64,000 nt of DNA from a virus. Both the position numbers and the translations under genes were made by a program. The notes beneath the pieces were generated by a model. It worked only from the letters and a program-made list of their open reading frames with translations. It had not been told where the DNA came from and did not search any database. The stretch covers positions 4,322-68,321 of IMG/VR virus record IMGVR_UViG_3300045988_138690. One strand, given 5' to 3'. Below are positions 26,165 through 57,930 of the stretch, one piece after another (positions within the stretch are counted from its first letter, which is position 1; every line of letters starts with the position of its first letter).

Positions 26165-26674
26165 ATGAACGAACTTAACAAGAAACTTAGAGACCGGGCT
26201 ATAGAGCTTGGTCTATGCAAACAATGGAAGGGTGAATGGGACAAAGATCGTACCCAGGACGAACTAATTAAGATGTGGAAGAAAGGCAGTGACTTTTGCT
26301 TTGAGAAGCACGATTTCCCCAATAAGGAGTTTATAAAGGCTTACTTTGATAGGAAAGTATTGAACGACAATCTTGTTTTCGTGGATGAAATAGTCAATAT
26401 CACCAATGGAGAAAGCGGTACATGGGTGATAAACGGTAACTGTACTGGTAATATCTCTTTTGGAGGATTTGCGGCTGCAAGATTGTATGTAAGGCATGAT
26501 TGCGATGTCTCTATTGATGTATCGGGAATGTCTAAGGTGTTTGTATCGGTATATAACAATGCCAAAGTAAACGTAAAGCAAAGTGGTAGCTCAAAGGTAT
26601 ATGTGTACAAGAAAAGCCCCTCCTGCGAGGTGGATTTGGACGGAGATGTAATGGCGAGAGAGGGAAGTATTTAA
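26165..26674 (+). CDS. Hypothetical protein with beta-helix-like C-terminal repeats (169 aa)
   Basis: N-terminal LGLCKQWKGEW domain followed by V-x-V-x repeats. Confidence 0.6.
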   Translation: MNELNKKLRDRAIELGLCKQWKGEWDKDRTQDELIKMWKKGSDFCFEKHDFPNKEFIKAYFDRKVLNDNLVFVDEIVNITNGESGTWVINGNCTGNISFGGFAAARLYVRHDCDVSIDVSGMSKVFVSVYNNAKVNVKQSGSSKVYVYKKSPSCEVDLDGDVMAREGSI

Positions 26675-26680
26675 TTGTAA

Positions 26681-26748
26681 TAGTCAAGACTTGTTCTGAC
26701 AGTTTTTTTGTCCGATAGTAAAACAAATGTCAGAACAAGTCTTGACTA
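26681..26748. terminator. 68-bp palindrome (perfect 21-bp arms), bidirectional terminator
   Basis: TAGTCAAGACTTGTTCTGACA (26681-26701) and its exact reverse complement (26728-26748), between convergent genes. Confidence 0.75.
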
Positions 26749-26773
26749 ATTCACATTAACTATCAATATCAAA

Positions 26774-27697
26774 CTATCTATTCAATCGTTTTATAAATGA
26801 TATATCAGACAGCAGCGTTTTCTTTTCGTTGTCTGATAATATTTCATTATCTGATACAATTAATTCTTCCAGGTATTCAGTAAATCCAGTAACATCCTTA
26901 TTTATTTTCTCTTTGTACAATTCAATTGTTTTTGGAAGCCCCATTCTGCCTTCACCGTAGGTATCAGATAGAAGTTTTAATATATCACTATTTACTTCTG
27001 AATAGTCATTACCCTCATGTAATATTTGTATTTTAGAAGTGTTATCAACTTCTTTAGCTTGTCTTTCTATTATGATAGACAATACAGAACTTACTTTCTT
27101 TATAAATTCTTTAGATTCTGCATATCTTGCTTTTATTTGAATAGAGGGCATTGATAAATTGTTTATTGTTATAACCATTGAATAAACAACTACTTCTTGT
27201 ATTTTTGTATTAGAAGTTGTGCCTATTTCTCTTTTGCCTGTAGTTCCTCCGATAACAGCACCTGTACCTCCTAAAAGCACTCCTCCTACGGTCGCTCTAC
27301 CTATCATACTTGAAGTTTTAGCTTTTGATGTTCCACTTGTGGAAGTGATGGATGAACTAATTCTCCCATCTTCGTATATATCTACTTTTATGATGTCAGA
27401 AAAATTAAACATCCATGTTTCTTCCCCATATTTAAGATATACTACCTTAGACGATTCGTAAACTTCTATATTTGAATACGGACATTTGGATTGGTATCCA
27501 AAAGATATTTCGCCATACTTTCTTATCCTTTCTTCTTTTTCTAATTCTTCTTTTTCTTTTCTATTTTTATTTTCAATTTCTCTTTTTTTCTGTAGTTCTT
27601 GTATCTTTCTTATTTCATTGGCTTCTTTATTGTCCCCTATTGTTTTCAATACTCCAAATACTATACCAATTATTATACCTAAAATAATATAAGTCAT
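26774..27697 (-). CDS. Single-pass membrane protein with K/E coiled coil and a glycine zipper (307 aa)
   Basis: N-terminal TM MTYIILGIIIGIVFGVL, a K/E-rich segment, an S/T-rich linker, and GRATVGGVLLGGTGAVIGGTTG. Confidence 0.65.
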   Translation of the reverse strand: MTYIILGIIIGIVFGVLKTIGDNKEANEIRKIQELQKKREIENKNRKEKEELEKEERIRKYGEISFGYQSKCPYSNIEVYESSKVVYLKYGEETWMFNFSDIIKVDIYEDGRISSSITSTSGTSKAKTSSMIGRATVGGVLLGGTGAVIGGTTGKREIGTTSNTKIQEVVVYSMVITINNLSMPSIQIKARYAESKEFIKKVSSVLSIIIERQAKEVDNTSKIQILHEGNDYSEVNSDILKLLSDTYGEGRMGLPKTIELYKEKINKDVTGFTEYLEELIVSDNEILSDNEKKTLLSDISFIKRLNR

Positions 27698-27801
27698 TTT
27701 ATTGTTTTTTAATTTATATGCAAATATAGGCCATAATCAGCATTTGTTGTTATAATATACATCATGTTATTAAACATGTTTGCTTTTTCAAAGAGAATGC
27801 A

Positions 27802-27809
27802 TATCTTTG
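27802..27809 (+). promoter_or_regulatory. -7 box TATCTTTG
   Basis: Matches TAnnTTTG at the head of a non-coding leader. Confidence 0.5.
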
Positions 27810-27812
27810 CAA

Positions 27813-27967
27813 TGACTGATACAACATAATAATTCTTGGGCAAAATAAAGCGAATACATTTTGTACAAGATATTGGGAAACCCTCTAAGGTGGCAGAAAG
27901 GAAACAATCTGCGACATCTATGCCCTGTGTATGTTGTGTCAGTCACACCTACGGAGGGTTTCTTTTT
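27813..27967 (+). ncRNA. Structured leader/sRNA with alternative pairings
   Basis: Segment A (27813-27827) pairs with B (27931-45) over 15 bp. The stem GAAACCCTC/GAGGGTTTC (27877-85/27954-62) is followed by T5. B can alternatively pair with C (27986-99). Confidence 0.45.
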
Positions 27968-27984
27968 ATCATAATTCGTTTAAT

Positions 27985-28176
27985 ATGACTGACACAACGA
28001 ATTTAACTTTACCTACCTCCTACCAAAAGGCGGTAATCGGCATCCTTCTGAAAGAGAAGAAGATGCTCCGACGTATCAAACGCAGAAAAGGGCTTGTACC
28101 TTTCTGTGCAGTGCTAACCCTCTACCTTTTCCATTTGTTCCTATATCCGTTTGTCAAACTTGCAAGGTGGATTTGA
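27985..28176 (+). CDS. Small tail-anchored membrane peptide (63 aa)
   Basis: MTDTTNL...KEKKMLRRIKRRKG followed by the hydrophobic LVPFCAVLTLYLFHLFLYPFV. The start codon lies inside complementary segment C. Confidence 0.35.
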   Translation: MTDTTNLTLPTSYQKAVIGILLKEKKMLRRIKRRKGLVPFCAVLTLYLFHLFLYPFVKLARWI

Positions 28177-28522
28177 TAATTGTTGATTTACTTGCTTAGT
28201 TAGTATATAAAATTCTGTGATAATGCGGTATATATTTTGTATATCGTATGAGTAATTGTATGTAAATTTACTTATTTGATTGCTTGATTAATTGATTTAT
28301 TTATCAGATAATCAATAAGTTAAATATAAAATATCCTATTGCGTAATTGATTTTTGTTACTAACTTAGCAGGCAGAAACAACGTTGTTAGTCGTTCTTCG
28401 TGGTTGTCGAACGACTGGAATAAAGATATTATTGGGCATTTCCCTTTGGAGCAGACAACCACATTAGGCTTCATCGGGATTTGCCCTTTACTTTTTAATA
28501 TAGGAATAAAACGAATCAAGAT

Positions 28523-29272
28523 ATGAACGAATTAGTTTTCAAAGGTCAGAACGAACAAGTTTTGACTAACAGCCTATTGGTTGCTGAAAAGTTCTGCAAA
28601 GAACATGGTGATGTATTAAAAGCCATTGATGCTTTAGTTGATAAATTGTCTGAAAATCAATGTGAAGGATATTTTGCGGAAACATCAATTGATGTTCCTC
28701 AACCTAATGGTGGAGTAAGAAATTCACGTGTTGTAGTCATGAATCGTGATGGGTTTACTTTACTTGTTATGGGGTTCACTGGTAAGAAAGCCCTAAAATT
28801 CAAATTGGAATATATCGCAGCCTTCAACGCCATGGAGAAAGCATTGAAAGAACAACAAAACAAAAAACTTTCTGGCGCAGAATTTCTTCTTGAGCAAGCA
28901 AAGTTAATGGTTGAGCAAGAACGCAGACTTTCAAATGTAGAGAATGAGATTGAGGCAATAAAGAAAGAACGAGAAGAAAACGGGAAATTCCTATTGTCAG
29001 TGTCTATGTCTTCGGAAGAATTACCGCAGCTGTCTATGCGCGACAACATCCGTCAACTAGTAAACAAATACGCATCCGCCATGAATATAAGGCAGCAAGA
29101 CGTATGGCACAAGATTTATGACCAGCTGTATTACCTATATCATATCTCCATACGGAACTACAAGAAAGCAAGACGAGACGAATCCAAACTTGAAATAGCG
29201 GAGAGAAATCATTTCCTTGATAAGATATACAATATCATATCGAATTTGGTTCGTGAGATGAATATCTCCTAA
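28523..29272 (+). CDS. Rha-family phage regulatory protein
   Basis: N-terminal VLTNSLLVAEKFCKEHGDVLKAIDAL matches the Rha-domain signature (ttS..iAe.fgK.H.nVLr.I). Confidence 0.75.
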   Translation: MNELVFKGQNEQVLTNSLLVAEKFCKEHGDVLKAIDALVDKLSENQCEGYFAETSIDVPQPNGGVRNSRVVVMNRDGFTLLVMGFTGKKALKFKLEYIAAFNAMEKALKEQQNKKLSGAEFLLEQAKLMVEQERRLSNVENEIEAIKKEREENGKFLLSVSMSSEELPQLSMRDNIRQLVNKYASAMNIRQQDVWHKIYDQLYYLYHISIRNYKKARRDESKLEIAERNHFLDKIYNIISNLVREMNIS

Positions 29273-29369
29273 TAGTTATCATAAATATAATCACTTTTTT
29301 AAGGTTGCACACGCCATGCAGCCTTGAAAATCTATGTACCACTTTACTTATATTAAAAAAATTAACATT

Positions 29370-29546
29370 ATGGAAAACAAAATAGAAATACTTATAAAAC
29401 AGAACAGGATGCTTATGCAGCAATTGCTACGCATATCAGAAGACTTGGAACTTGCGCAAGAAAAGATAGCCAAGCTGGAAAAATCCGAATGTACAGGAAG
29501 CCTTAAAACGAAAAACCCCCACATGAAGATATTGAACCGTATATGA
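29370..29546 (+). CDS. Small coiled-coil protein, paralog of 174-368
   Basis: MENKIEILIKQNRMLMQQLLRISEDLELAQEKIAKLEKS, followed by a terminator. Confidence 0.5.
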   Translation: MENKIEILIKQNRMLMQQLLRISEDLELAQEKIAKLEKSECTGSLKTKNPHMKILNRI

Positions 29547-56926: not shown

Positions 56927-57115
56927 TTACTTTTTTCTTATCTGTAAAAATCCGCGTTTCTCACATTCACGCAGCAACTCCATATCTTCGTCCTTTATAT
57001 CACATGGTGTTTCATGGTTGACGCTCATATAGTCTGATATCCCGAATTTTCGGCATATATCGTGATAGAAACGTTTGTTTCGGCCTCTTGCAGTCCAACA
57101 TACTGTTAGCTTCAT
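56927..57115 (-). CDS. Hypothetical protein (62 aa)
   Basis: ORF in the early string. Confidence 0.45.
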   Translation of the reverse strand: MKLTVCWTARGRNKRFYHDICRKFGISDYMSVNHETPCDIKDEDMELLRECEKRGFLQIRKK

Positions 57116-57930
57116 ATTGAAAACAAATTAAGGAATTTGTTCACAAAGAAAACTTGTCCTTTGCCTGTTATTTTAGTAGTCAGTGTAGTATGTAAAACCC
57201 CGTTATTTCCGGAACGCACGCCTTTTTTGATTACAAATAACCCTTGTTCGATATACTTCTGATTAGGTACATTATACCTTTCTCCATGTTTGCCTAAATA
57301 TCCGTTTTCACGCATCCAAGCAAACAATTTCTTTTCACCTATATTGTATCCATTCTGCGCAATGAGCTTTGCAAGCTCTCCGATAAGGCATGAACTTTCC
57401 GCCCCTCTAAAAGCGTTTGTAAATGTTACGGCTGGTTTTGTTTCTTCAATTATGTTTTTGTTTTGTTCTTTGAGGATTTGATTTTCACAAGCTATCCTTT
57501 GCTTTTCCTCGCGTTCGCTCTTTAACTGTGTGGCAAGGCTGATAACAAGGTCTGGGTTGTTTATCATTTGTTCAAGCGTCGGCTGCGTAGCGGTCATGCC
57601 GTATTGAAGTAACTCTTTGATGCGCTTATTACACCATATAGCAAAAGCCGGGCTTAGCCAACGGGCAAACTCTAAGGCTACATCTTCGTGCATCCATGTG
57701 CCTTGTTCATTATTTCCTCCTTTAACTACTTGAATTAGTGCCGATATGGGAATATGCATATCGGCTGAGAGTGCTTCTGCAAACTCGGTAGTAGTTTTCA
57801 GCCTAAGCCAATCACCTACCAATTTTCCGAACGGTTTAGCCATTTCGGTTGCATTCACCATTACGTTATCTCCTTTTGAAAAATGAATTATAGTTCCGTT
57901 GTAATCGAATTTAATAATTGAAGTGTTCAT
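57112..57930 (-). CDS. KilA-N / KilAC (antirepressor-type) protein
   Basis: N-terminal VMVNATEMAKPFGKLVGDWLRLKTTTEF (KilA-N-like) and C-terminal LIGELAKLIAQNGYNIGEKKLFAWMRENGYL (KilAC/ANT-like). Confidence 0.7.
   Translation of the reverse strand: MNTSIIKFDYNGTIIHFSKGDNVMVNATEMAKPFGKLVGDWLRLKTTTEFAEALSADMHIPISALIQVVKGGNNEQGTWMHEDVALEFARWLSPAFAIWCNKRIKELLQYGMTATQPTLEQMINNPDLVISLATQLKSEREEKQRIACENQILKEQNKNIIEETKPAVTFTNAFRGAESSCLIGELAKLIAQNGYNIGEKKLFAWMRENGYLGKHGERYNVPNQKYIEQGLFVIKKGVRSGNNGVLHTTLTTKITGKGQVFFVNKFLNLFSI

What the first reader, a model, noticed from the sequence alone, without database searches (positions are those of the whole stretch)
27802..28176. Leader with three mutually complementary 13-15-nt segments, one of which covers a start codon
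A TATCTTTG -7 box (27802-27809) is followed by three related segments.
- Segment A is TGACTGATACAACAT (27813-27827).
- Segment B is ATGTTGTGTCAGTCA (27931-27945). It is the reverse complement of A (14 Watson-Crick pairs plus 1 G-U).
- Segment C is TGACTGACACAACG (27986-27999). It is a second near-copy of A and pairs with B over 14 bp (13 Watson-Crick pairs plus 1 G-U).

Segment C begins one base into the ATG (27985) of a 63-aa ORF. That ORF encodes a basic stretch followed by one hydrophobic helix.

A 9-bp stem (27877-85/27954-62) followed by T5 encloses B. So B can pair with A or with C, but not both, and a terminator-like helix sits in between.

This is the logic of an attenuator or riboregulator, or of the folded 5' UTRs that gate type I toxin peptides. 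Alternatively, the three copies (two direct, one inverted) could be DNA operators for a repressor such as the adjacent Rha-family protein.
Basis: seen in the sequence. Interest (0 to 1): 0.65.

Follow-up and report, generated by a model that had tools for sequence, protein, structure and literature searches.

The report
Phage c4-type antisense RNA switch
The three matching segments are a small phage regulatory RNA (Rfam family c4-2, related to the c4 immunity RNA of phage P1) and its two target sites in a Bacteroides prophage; related phages change all three in step, so the pairing is real, but the kind of system is already known.

Summary
The motif TGACTGAYACAAC occurs three times in the window, against 0.00 expected by chance.

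Segment B lies inside a ~90-nt structured RNA (27876-27967). This RNA matches Rfam c4-2 (RF02944), which is in the same clan as the P1/P7 c4 antisense RNA.

The layout copies the annotated P1 immI operon:
- Here: promoter, A, c4-like RNA carrying B, C on the start codon, small ORF, antirepressor-like gene.
- P1: promoter, a1/b1, c4, a2/b2, icd, ant.

In 152 related viral, genome and metagenome loci the RNA scaffold is almost invariant. A 5-nt stretch of B occurs in five versions, and A and C change with it (about 99% of cells paired; slid controls 36-52%). In most relatives C sits on the start codon of an antirepressor gene (Rha, AntA or KilA-N domain plus a KilAC domain).

Best explanation: a trans-acting antisense immunity RNA blocks translation initiation at C. 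A is a competing upstream copy that can sequester B and prevent the terminator-like closing stem from forming.

The type I toxin and DNA-operator readings are not favoured.

Verdict: new member of a known kind, with some variant features. Moderate interest.

The parts
27763..27778 (.). Palindrome CATGTT-ATTA-AACATG next to the -33 element. Candidate operator for a protein repressor, by analogy with the C1 operator Oc4 upstream of the P1 c4 promoter. Inferred only.
   Evidence: Present in the relatives that share the 63-aa ORF (L101, L141, L163). L141 carries a compensated change (TATGTT..AACATA). The P1 analogy comes from the annotation.
27779..27809 (+). Bacteroides-type promoter: -33 TTTG (27779-82) and -7 TAnnTTTG (TATCTTTG, 27802-09). 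It predicts a transcription start at about 27813, the first base of A.
   Evidence: Both motifs keep the same spacing in relatives with four otherwise dissimilar upstream sequences. Consensus as quoted in PMC7366714. The transcription start itself was not measured.
27813..27827 (+). Segment A: upstream copy of the target, the counterpart of P1 a1/b1. It pairs with B over 15 bp (14 Watson-Crick plus 1 G-U).
   Evidence: In the A:B helix, 99.3% of cells are paired across 20 distinct sequences, and 5 pairs change on both sides.
27834..27870 (+). Predicted spacer hairpin between A and the c4-like RNA.
   Evidence: Predicted in the A-blocked fold of every specificity type. Its function was not tested.
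27876..27967 (+). c4-2 family RNA. Closing stem (27876-86 with 27953-63), inner stem, hairpin 1 with a GGAAAC loop, hairpin 2, a single-stranded junction, and a U5 tail (27963-67).
   Evidence: Rfam RF02944: 41.3 bits against a gathering score of 41, E 9.4e-7, full-length match. MFE -35.4 kcal/mol, z -4.4. G-U pairs in the stems fit only the + strand. A homologous position in L186 scores 48.9 bits.
27931..27945 (+). Segment B: the antisense element of the RNA, the counterpart of P1 b'/a'. The constant half AUGUUGUG lies in hairpin 2. The variable specificity half lies mostly in the single-stranded junction AGUCA.
   Evidence: unpaired probability about 0.9 for the junction. Five variants are seen in 152 loci.
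27986..27999 (+). Segment C: target site over the start codon and codons 2-5 of the first ORF, the counterpart of P1 a2/b2.
   Evidence: In the C:B helix, 99.6% of cells are paired and 5 pairs change on both sides. C starts one base into the ATG in all relatives, whatever gene follows.
27985..28176 (+). 63-aa ORF: basic stretch followed by one hydrophobic helix. It occupies the position of P1 icd but is not homologous to it.
   Evidence: No Pfam or PHROG family. Nine close homologues only. The frame stays open behind three different leaders, with dN/dS 0.2-0.55. No similarity to P1 Icd.
28523..29272 (+). Rha-family, antirepressor-like gene downstream. Whether it is transcribed from the c4 promoter is not known.
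   Evidence: Pfam Phage_pRha 1.2e-25. PHROG 373 'anti-repressor' 5.7e-38. Relatives that carry the 63-aa ORF also have an Rha, AntA or Bro-N gene about 350 nt downstream.

Best explanation
This is the antisense-RNA immunity module of a temperate Bacteroides prophage. It works like the immI (c4-icd-ant) operon of phages P1 and P7.

Proposed sequence of events:
1. A Bacteroides-type promoter starts a transcript at about 27813.
2. The first 15 nt of that transcript are segment A.
3. About 60 nt further on lies a ~90-nt structured RNA of the Rfam c4-2 family. Its closing stem and U5 tail look like a terminator.
4. The RNA displays segment B, partly in a single-stranded junction.
5. Released as a stable small RNA, it pairs through B with segment C on read-through transcripts. 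C covers the start codon and codons 2-5 of the first ORF.
6. That pairing blocks translation initiation. Bacteroidetes mRNAs lack Shine-Dalgarno sequences, so the start-codon region itself is the target.
7. This keeps the downstream lytic or antirepressor function silent in a lysogen and in superinfecting phages of the same specificity type.

The 5-nt variable part of B sets the specificity, which gives heteroimmunity groups.

Segment A is a built-in competitor. In the unprocessed transcript, A:B pairing is as stable as, or more stable than, the c4 fold. It excludes the terminator-like closing stem. A therefore probably decides whether a given transcript ends as c4 RNA or reads through into the ORF. 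It can also be titrated by free c4 RNA.

Shown:
- the sequence anatomy;
- the family match;
- three-way compensatory variation;
- the target position on start codons of antirepressor genes;
- the alternative folds.

Inferred:
- the transcription start;
- termination or processing;
- action in trans;
- translational block;
- the role of A.
For: 1. Family match.
- Rfam c4-2 hit over the full model (41.3 bits, E 9.4e-7).
- A more divergent relative, upstream of a homologous small ORF, scores 48.9 bits.

2. Same order of parts as P1.
- The P1 record annotates promoter, a1, b1, c4 RNA, a2, b2, icd (73 aa), ant1/2.
- Its notes read 'repression of icd ant translation'.

3. Covariation.
- 152 related loci carry five versions of B: GTGACGTTCA, GTGTCAAGCA, GTGTTAAGCA, GTGACAGTCA, GTGTCAGTCA.
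- A and C match B in all but four loci.
- A:B is 99.3% paired and C:B 99.6% paired. Five pairs change on both sides in each helix. Slid controls give 36-52%.

4. Imperfections fit RNA on the + strand. One G-U in A:B is always present, at either of two positions. There is also a terminal G-U in C:B.

5. Target position is constant.
- C starts one base into the ATG in all relatives.
- The gene behind it differs: Rha+KilAC, AntA+KilAC or KilA-N+KilAC antirepressors, or the 63-aa ORF.
- Only 17 nt separate the U5 tail from the ATG, so the ORF must be read from the same transcript.

6. Same logic with unrelated sequence.
- L189 has a 16-nt A, B and C of different sequence, with C ending 2 nt before the ATG.
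- L186 has two-block complementarity like P1.

7. Alternative folds.
- The A:B fold and the c4 fold are 0 to 5.8 kcal/mol apart in all types.
- The variable part of B is largely unpaired in the c4 fold.

8. Context is a temperate phage: integrases, portal, terminase, capsid, tape measure.

9. Published background.
- c4 RNA represses Ant synthesis, and icd is required for ant expression (PMC8546580, PMC8201110).
- c4-2 is called a likely distant homologue of a known RNA (PMC5737381).
Against: - The Rfam score is only just above the gathering score. A standard gathering-threshold scan of the whole window reports nothing.
- There are no expression data. The transcription start, the 3' end, processing and action in trans are all inferred.
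- The related loci were collected with an exact 21-mer from hairpin 1, so the invariance of that hairpin is partly by selection. The sequences are close relatives. The five types probably stand for roughly six base changes in B, not many independent events.
- In the window the antirepressor-like Rha gene is 346 nt beyond the small ORF. It is preceded by its own conserved leader, which in other phages follows a promoter box. Its control by the c4-like RNA is therefore uncertain.
- The small ORF is not related to Icd.
- The simple terminator scan did not call the closing stem plus U5, because its loop is too large for that tool.
Confidence: 0.8

Rival explanations
1. A purely cis-acting transcription attenuator. 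B pairs with A (antiterminator) or lets the closing stem plus U5 form (terminator). Some other signal decides between them. No stable trans-acting RNA is made.
For: - Two mutually exclusive folds lie 0-5.8 kcal/mol apart in all types.
- A U-run follows the closing stem in all three lineages.
- A would be transcribed first and could capture B before the 3' strand of the closing stem exists.
Against: - This reading does not explain C. C is as well conserved and covaries as well as A, and it always sits on the start codon.
- Variation is concentrated in a 5-nt stretch of B within an otherwise constant scaffold. That is what selection on trans specificity (heteroimmunity) predicts. A cis-only helix could drift anywhere along its length.
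- The RNA belongs to the clan of a proven trans-acting RNA.
- This rival is compatible with the best explanation as a sub-mechanism rather than a replacement.
Confidence: 0.1
2. A type I toxin-antitoxin pair. The 63-aa membrane peptide is the toxin, and the structured RNA is its antitoxin, blocking its translation.
For: - The peptide has a basic stretch and one hydrophobic helix and is under purifying selection.
- The RNA is complementary to its start region.
- P1 Icd, which occupies the same position, is itself growth-inhibitory (PMC11897509, abstract).
Against: - In about 95% of the related loci the same RNA and target cassette is fused directly to antirepressor genes, and the peptide is absent.
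- Wherever the peptide occurs, an antirepressor-like gene follows.
- RNA and target lie on one strand in one transcript unit. This is the c4 arrangement, not the usual divergent or overlapping type I layout.
Confidence: 0.06
3. A, B and C are three DNA operators (two direct, one inverted) for a protein repressor such as Rha or a CI-like protein. They change together because the protein's specificity changes.
For: Copies of one motif in both orientations would also appear complementary, and would co-vary between phages.
Against: - Every difference between the copies is a transition that keeps a G-U pair on the + strand RNA.
- In L186 the two blocks are spaced differently in A and in B (3 against 4 nt), which suits an RNA internal loop but not a fixed protein site.
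- All three sites lie downstream of the predicted start, at +1, about +120 and about +175. None overlaps the -33 or -7 elements.
- B sits inside a conserved RNA fold with an Rfam match.
- C tracks the start codon, not the promoter.
- Close homologues of the window's Rha gene in 80 other viral contigs have no such RNA within 3 kb.
Confidence: 0.03

Closest known systems
immI operon of phages P1 and P7 (c4 antisense RNA, icd, ant1/ant2; Rfam C4 RF01695 and c4-a1b1 RF03163)
   Same: - Order of parts: promoter, upstream target copy, structured RNA with the antisense element, downstream target copy at the translation start of a small first ORF, antirepressor gene.
- Position of the antisense bases: the loop side of hairpin 2 and the 3' junction of a closing-stem, two-hairpin fold.
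- Target and RNA lie on one transcript.
- Specificity differs between related phages, with compensating changes.
   Different: - The antisense element is one continuous 14-15 nt segment, not two blocks of 7 and 8 nt.
- The target covers the start codon and codons 2-5, not a ribosome-binding site 10-47 nt upstream.
- The RNA ends in a U-run after the closing stem, suggesting termination. The P1 RNA is processed and has no U-run.
- In most relatives the antirepressor is the direct target and there is no small ORF.
- The small ORF is unrelated to Icd.
- The RF01695 model does not match.
- The host is Bacteroides rather than enterobacteria.
c4-2 RNA motif (Rfam RF02944; Weinberg et al. 2017, PMC5737381)
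   Same: Full-length match to the covariance model at or above the gathering score in the window, and clearly above it in the relative L186. Closing stem, inner stem, two hairpins and a U tail.
   Different: - Hairpin 2 carries 18 nt where the model has 7.
- The score is marginal, and a standard whole-window scan misses the hit.
- In the paper library I found no description of target sites, specificity types or regulated genes for c4-2. The supplementary text of the 2017 paper was not available.
sar antisense RNA and ant of phage P22 immI (from my own knowledge, not checked here)
   Same: A small phage RNA that blocks translation of an antirepressor gene by pairing over its initiation region.
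   Different: sar is transcribed from the opposite strand of its target. It is therefore fully complementary, has no upstream decoy copy and has no c4-like fold.
Type I toxin-antitoxin systems such as hok/sok
   Same: A small hydrophobic peptide whose translation start is covered by a small RNA, with alternative folds of the leader.
   Different: The RNA and target cassette is mostly attached to antirepressor genes, not to the peptide. RNA and target are co-directional in one transcript.

Membership tests
c4-2 RNA (Rfam RF02944) | Covariance-model score at or above the curated gathering score (41 bits) | tested here: met
   41.3 bits, E 9.4e-7, model positions 1-79 of 79, in a 3-kb search. This is marginal: the whole-window gathering scan lists nothing. 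The relative L186 scores 48.9 bits.
c4-2 RNA (Rfam RF02944) | Fold: long closing stem, inner stem enclosing two hairpins, single-stranded 3' junction, U-rich tail | tested here: met
   The MFE of 27876-27966 gives this fold (-35.4 kcal/mol, z -4.4). The stems are 97-100% paired in 20 sequences, with two pairs changed on both sides in the closing stem. Most stem pairs never vary, so covariation support for the fold itself is thin.
P1/P7-type c4 immunity system (immI) | The antisense element of the RNA is complementary to a site at the translation start of the first downstream ORF (a2/b2) | tested here: met
   B:C has 13 Watson-Crick pairs plus 1 G-U over the ATG and codons 2-5. 99.6% of cells are paired, with 5 compensated positions.
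P1/P7-type c4 immunity system (immI) | A second copy of the target lies between the promoter and the RNA (a1/b1) | tested here: met
   A:B is 15 bp including 1 G-U. 99.3% of cells are paired, with 5 compensated positions. The P1 record annotates a1/b1 in the same place.
P1/P7-type c4 immunity system (immI) | The regulated operon encodes an antirepressor | tested here: met
   Relatives have Rha+KilAC, AntA+KilAC or KilA-N+KilAC proteins starting at C. In the window itself, an Rha-family gene (PHROG 'anti-repressor') lies 346 nt after the small ORF. Co-transcription was not shown.
P1/P7-type c4 immunity system (immI) | The first ORF is icd (a homologue of P1 Icd) | tested here: not met
   No BLASTP alignment between the 63-aa product and P1 Icd. 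The two fall in different or no PHROG families.
P1/P7-type c4 immunity system (immI) | The RNA matches the C4 model RF01695 | tested here: not met
   In the window only c4-2 of that clan is listed, and overlapping matches from one clan are reduced to the best, so a weaker C4 match would be hidden. The P1 locus gives C4 at 68.8 bits and c4-a1b1 at 51 bits.
P1/P7-type c4 immunity system (immI) | Specificity differences between related phages are carried by compensating changes in the RNA and its targets | tested here: met
   Five B variants in 152 loci, with A and C matched in all but four.
P1/P7-type c4 immunity system (immI) | The RNA is cut out of the operon transcript (RNase P in P1) and acts in trans to give immunity | not testable with these tools
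   Needs RNA mapping and genetics. The sequence shows only that the ORF has no room for a promoter of its own (17 nt after the U5).
Type I toxin-antitoxin | The small toxic peptide is the constant partner of the RNA | tested here: not met
   The peptide is found in the window and in 4 of the first 100 related viral loci (L101, L115, L141, L163). The others have antirepressor genes at C.
Transcription attenuator | Mutually exclusive terminator and antiterminator folds of similar stability | tested here: inconclusive
   The A:B fold excludes the closing stem and is 0-5.8 kcal/mol more stable than the c4 fold in seven representatives. Termination at the U5 was not measured.

The most novel reading that the evidence does not exclude
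The upstream copy A may be a working sensor rather than a leftover duplicate.

Proposed mechanism:
- In a nascent transcript, A captures B. This prevents the terminator-like closing stem from forming and lets RNA polymerase read into the antirepressor operon.
- Free c4-type RNA from a resident prophage titrates A. The closing stem then forms, so the transcript ends as more c4 RNA.
- The module would therefore measure its own RNA level.

This would give a function to the a1/b1-type sites. The P1 genome record still lists those sites only as 'putative' targets.

The five seed variants would define at least five heteroimmunity groups among common human-gut Bacteroides phages.
Probability: 0.3. 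Interest if true: 0.65.

Novelty: new member of a known kind. Interest (0 to 1): 0.45.

Why it matters
Little is known about how temperate Bacteroides phages, which are abundant in the human gut, maintain lysogeny and exclude relatives.

- **A concrete, testable switch.** The locus is a small RNA whose 5-nt seed predicts which phages are immune to which. Its targets sit on antirepressor genes of several domain types.
- **A gap in routine annotation.** A member of an Rfam family can be missed by a standard scan.
- **A cleaner case of the upstream copy.** Here the upstream target copy is a continuous 15-nt helix with a conserved single G-U and a near-isoenergetic competing fold. The role of such copies is unsettled even in P1, so this locus could help resolve it.

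Tried and rejected
- **tRNA or tmRNA:** none in the window.
- **Intrinsic-terminator scan:** no call in 27400-28700. The closing stem encloses about 65 nt, outside that tool's loop limit, so this says little.
- **Homologues of the window's Rha gene as a route to relatives:**
  - 80 viral loci were found, but none has the RNA within 3 kb, by blastn or by my covariance model R1.
  - Some of those contigs carry the RNA elsewhere. The Rha gene and the RNA module are therefore not a fixed pair.
- **Model R1:** it was built from near-identical sequences (effective number 0.93) and does not reach the diverged relatives L186 and L189. It is useful only for close copies.
- **GenBank phage records:** no match to 27800-28200, so no isolated phage in that collection has this RNA type.
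- **Genome collection:** four hits to the 21-mer. Two are real (MAGs labelled Bacteroides and Odoribacter) and two are chance matches.
- **Other targets of B in the window:** nothing beyond A and C with up to 3 mismatches at above-chance frequency. RNA duplex scans give only interrupted, chance-level duplexes.
- **63-aa ORF:** no Pfam or PHROG family and no similarity to Icd.
- **Literature:** the original P1 c4 papers and the P1 genome paper are not in the library, and the supplement of the c4-2 paper is not held. Details of P1 c4 processing therefore rest on the GenBank annotation and my own knowledge.

Full report
**1. The observation**

- -7 box TATCTTTG, 27802-27809;
- A = TGACTGATACAACAT, 27813-27827;
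- B = ATGTTGTGTCAGTCA, 27931-27945;
- C = TGACTGACACAACG, 27986-27999, starting one base into the ATG at 27985 of a 63-aa ORF;
- the 9-bp stem 27877-85 with 27954-62, followed by T5.

The repeat finder lists A/B as 16 nt at 94% complementary, B/C as 13 nt at 100%, and A/C as a 14-nt direct repeat. The motif TGACTGAYACAAC occurs three times in the window. None of 100 dinucleotide-preserving shuffles contains it even once.

**2. What it is**

An Rfam scan of 26500-29500 gives one credible hit: c4-2 RNA (RF02944, clan CL00128) at 27876-27965 on the + strand.
- The score is 41.3 bits against a gathering score of 41, with E 9.4e-7 and a full-length match.
- B lies in the 3' side of its second hairpin and the single-stranded junction that follows.
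- On its own the RNA folds into the model's shape at -35.4 kcal/mol, z -4.4.
- The hit is marginal, and the standard gathering-threshold scan of the whole window misses it.

The 2017 paper that defined c4-2 calls it a likely distant homologue of a previously described RNA (PMC5737381). The clan partner is the c4 antisense RNA of phages P1 and P7 (PMC2864571).

**3. Comparison with P1**

The annotated P1 genome (NC_005856) lists, in this order:
- a C1 operator;
- the promoters of c4;
- 'putative a1' and 'b1' target sites;
- the 77-nt C4 RNA;
- target sites a2 and b2, annotated 'repression of icd ant translation';
- icd (73 aa, 'apparently required for expression of ant');
- the antirepressor genes ant1 and ant2.

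Rfam recognises C4 (68.8 bits) and c4-a1b1 (51 bits) there.

The window has the same order: promoter, A, c4-like RNA with B, C, small ORF, and then an Rha-family gene. That gene scores Pfam Phage_pRha 1.2e-25 and PHROG 'anti-repressor' 5.7e-38.

In P1, b' lies in the loop of hairpin 2 and a' in the 3' junction. In the window, the constant half of B lies in hairpin 2 and the variable half in the junction. Published summaries state that c4 RNA represses Ant synthesis and that icd is needed for ant expression (PMC8546580; PMC8201110).

**4. Relatives and covariation**

How the relatives were collected:
- An exact 21-mer from hairpin 1 finds 100 IMG/VR viral contigs.
- It also finds two metagenome-assembled genomes (MAGs), labelled Bacteroides and Odoribacter, and 49 metagenome contigs, mostly human gut.

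What varies:
- The RNA scaffold is nearly invariant.
- Five adjacent positions of B occur in five versions. Counts over 152 loci: GTGACGTTCA 71, GTGTCAAGCA 51, GTGTTAAGCA 22, GTGACAGTCA 4, and the window's GTGTCAGTCA 4.
- A and C carry the matching version in all but four loci.

Pair counts on an alignment of 20 distinct sequences (A1):
- The A:B helix is 99.3% paired, with five pairs changed on both sides.
- The C:B helix is 99.6% paired, with five pairs changed on both sides.
- Sliding the partner by 1-3 columns gives 36-52% paired.

Further points:
- All imperfections are G-U pairs on the + strand. One occurs in every A:B helix, at either of two positions, and one is at the end of C:B. The closing stem also contains G-U pairs.
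- Five of five variable-seed columns are polymorphic, against 14 of 86 other columns of the RNA (from A2). The variation is therefore concentrated where trans specificity would be set.
- Caveat: these are close relatives, and the five types probably stand for about six base changes in B, each mirrored twice.

**5. What the target controls**

C always starts one base into an ATG, but the gene differs:
- about 251-aa AntA + KilAC proteins;
- 254-aa Rha + KilAC proteins;
- a 264-aa KilA-N + KilAC protein;
- in the window and four viral loci, the 63-aa ORF.

All start M-x-x-T-T-N. Residues 2-3 follow the seed, and TTN is encoded by the constant half of the target. The promoter, RNA, target and first six codons thus form a cassette that has been joined to different antirepressor genes.

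Wherever the small ORF occurs, an Rha, AntA or Bro-N gene follows about 350 nt later.

The small ORF:
- has no family assignment and only nine close homologues;
- has dN/dS of 0.2-0.55 with the frame kept open;
- shows no similarity to Icd.

It is a positional analogue of icd, not a homologue.

**6. The same logic with other sequences**

Homologues of the small ORF with different N-termini led to two further leaders.
- **L186** has a c4-2 RNA scoring 48.9 bits. Its antisense region matches, in two blocks as in P1, one site just after a TAnnTTTG box and another ending at the ATG.
- **L189** has an RNA that Rfam does not recognise. It has a similar fold (long closing stem, U7). It carries a 16-nt A, B and C of quite different sequence (CGCTAAACATCAATAG), with C ending 2 nt before the ATG.

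Three lineages therefore share the three-site design.

**7. Promoter and translation start**

- The -7 box and a TTTG at the -33 position keep their spacing in relatives with four otherwise unrelated upstream sequences.
- They fit the Bacteroides consensus quoted in PMC7366714.
- This places the start at about 27813, so A would be the 5' end of the transcript.
- The same paper notes that Bacteroidetes mRNAs lack Shine-Dalgarno sequences. That fits a target on the start codon itself.
- Only 17 nt lie between the U5 and the ATG, so the ORF must be read from transcripts that pass through the RNA.

**8. Alternative folds**

- For 27813-27968 the MFE (-46.1 kcal/mol) contains the A:B helix and lacks the closing stem.
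- With A blocked, the c4 fold forms at -45.0 kcal/mol.
- In six other representatives the A:B fold is 0 to 5.8 kcal/mol more stable.
- In the c4 fold the junction AGUCA, which is part of the variable seed, is about 90% unpaired.

From this I infer that A competes with the c4 fold and with the terminator-like stem. Its exact role is not shown.

**9. Context**

The window is a temperate siphovirus-type prophage with two tyrosine integrases, a primase/helicase-like gene, portal, terminase, capsid, a 1670-aa tape measure and a 1698-aa tail protein. The module sits between the tape-measure region and the distal tail genes. In LoVEphage and Phocaeicola phage PV4-TP1, an Rha or KilA gene occupies the same position.

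**10. Rivals**

- **Cis-only attenuator.** It does not explain C, or the concentration of variation in the seed.
- **Type I toxin-antitoxin pair.** The peptide is absent from about 95% of relatives.
- **DNA operators.** This is contradicted by the G-U-only imperfections, by the different block spacing in L186, by the position of all three sites downstream of the start, and by the RNA fold around B.

**11. Verdict**

This is a member of the c4 clan of phage antisense immunity RNAs (Rfam c4-2), together with its upstream and downstream target sites. It works like P1 immI.

It differs from P1 in having:
- a continuous 14-15-nt antisense segment;
- a target on the start codon;
- a terminator-like 3' end;
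- in most relatives, direct control of the antirepressor;
- a non-homologous small ORF.

I found no description of targets or specificity types for c4-2 in the paper library, but the kind of system is known.

Novelty: new member of a known kind. Interest: 0.45.

Noticed in passing
window 28376-28511 (also L186 4449-4584, L190 1801-1923): A second conserved non-coding element lies just 5' of the Rha gene.
- It is 97.8% identical in L186, about 84% identical in LoVEphage and Phocaeicola phage PV4-TP1, and present in 56 IMG/VR contigs.
- In most of these it starts right after a TAnnTTTG box.
- It precedes Rha, Bro-N, AntA or KilA-N genes.
- The consensus fold has a first hairpin with six pairs changed on both sides, and a long second hairpin ending in a U-run.
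- The loop of hairpin 1 (GUGGUUGUC) is complementary to the apical loop of hairpin 2 (GACAACCAC).
- No Rfam family matches it.

It looks like an undescribed structured leader or small RNA attached to antirepressor genes.
   Followed up: partly
window 27763-27778: Palindrome CATGTT-ATTA-AACATG directly next to the -33 TTTG of the c4 promoter. It is present in L101, L141 and L163, with a compensated change in L141. It is a candidate protein operator, by analogy with the C1 operator Oc4 of P1.
   Followed up: partly
L284 (contig SKEE01000006.1, 280,720 bp): The only locus where the RNA and its sites disagree. B is of the ACGTTC type, while A and C are of the TTAAGC type (4 mismatches plus a wobble). 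It may be a natural recombinant that escapes its own RNA, or an assembly chimera of two co-resident phages.
   Followed up: no
L136, L167, L295: Target C carries a single T-to-C change, which puts a C-A mismatch in the middle of the B:C duplex. A and B are unchanged. This could be an escape (virulent-like) variant.
   Followed up: no
L097 and at least 10 other related loci; also L145, L081, L104: The antirepressor ORF that starts at C is cut short (34, 72, 107 or 113 aa) in a sizeable minority of contigs. The cause could be decay of the gene in some prophages, or sequencing errors.
   Followed up: no
window 26680-26749: A long, nearly perfect hairpin (about 22-bp stem) between the convergent ORFs 26165-26674 (+) and 26774-27697 (-). 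It produces spurious microRNA hits on both strands in Rfam. It is probably a bidirectional terminator.
   Followed up: no
window 57112-57930 (- strand): A second antirepressor-type gene (KilA-N + KilAC domains) lies elsewhere in the prophage. There is no c4-like RNA nearby, and no site complementary to B.
   Followed up: partly
window 27985-28002 and the start of the target ORFs in L081-L180: Unrelated proteins (the 63-aa peptide and the Rha, AntA and KilA-N antirepressors) all begin M-x-x-T-T-N. These codons are dictated by the RNA target site, and the cassette boundary lies right after codon 6.
   Followed up: yes
window 27967-27984 and 28506-28523: The 18 nt just upstream of the small ORF's ATG are 83% complementary to the 18 nt just upstream of the Rha ATG (pair I4). 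In AT-rich DNA this may be chance. It was not examined in relatives.
   Followed up: no
window, whole: The c4-2 hit appears only when a short stretch is searched with permissive filters. The gathering-threshold scan of the whole window reports nothing, and a 46-kb search did not list the equivalent RNAs of L101 and L163. Routine annotation will therefore miss this RNA type.
   Followed up: yes
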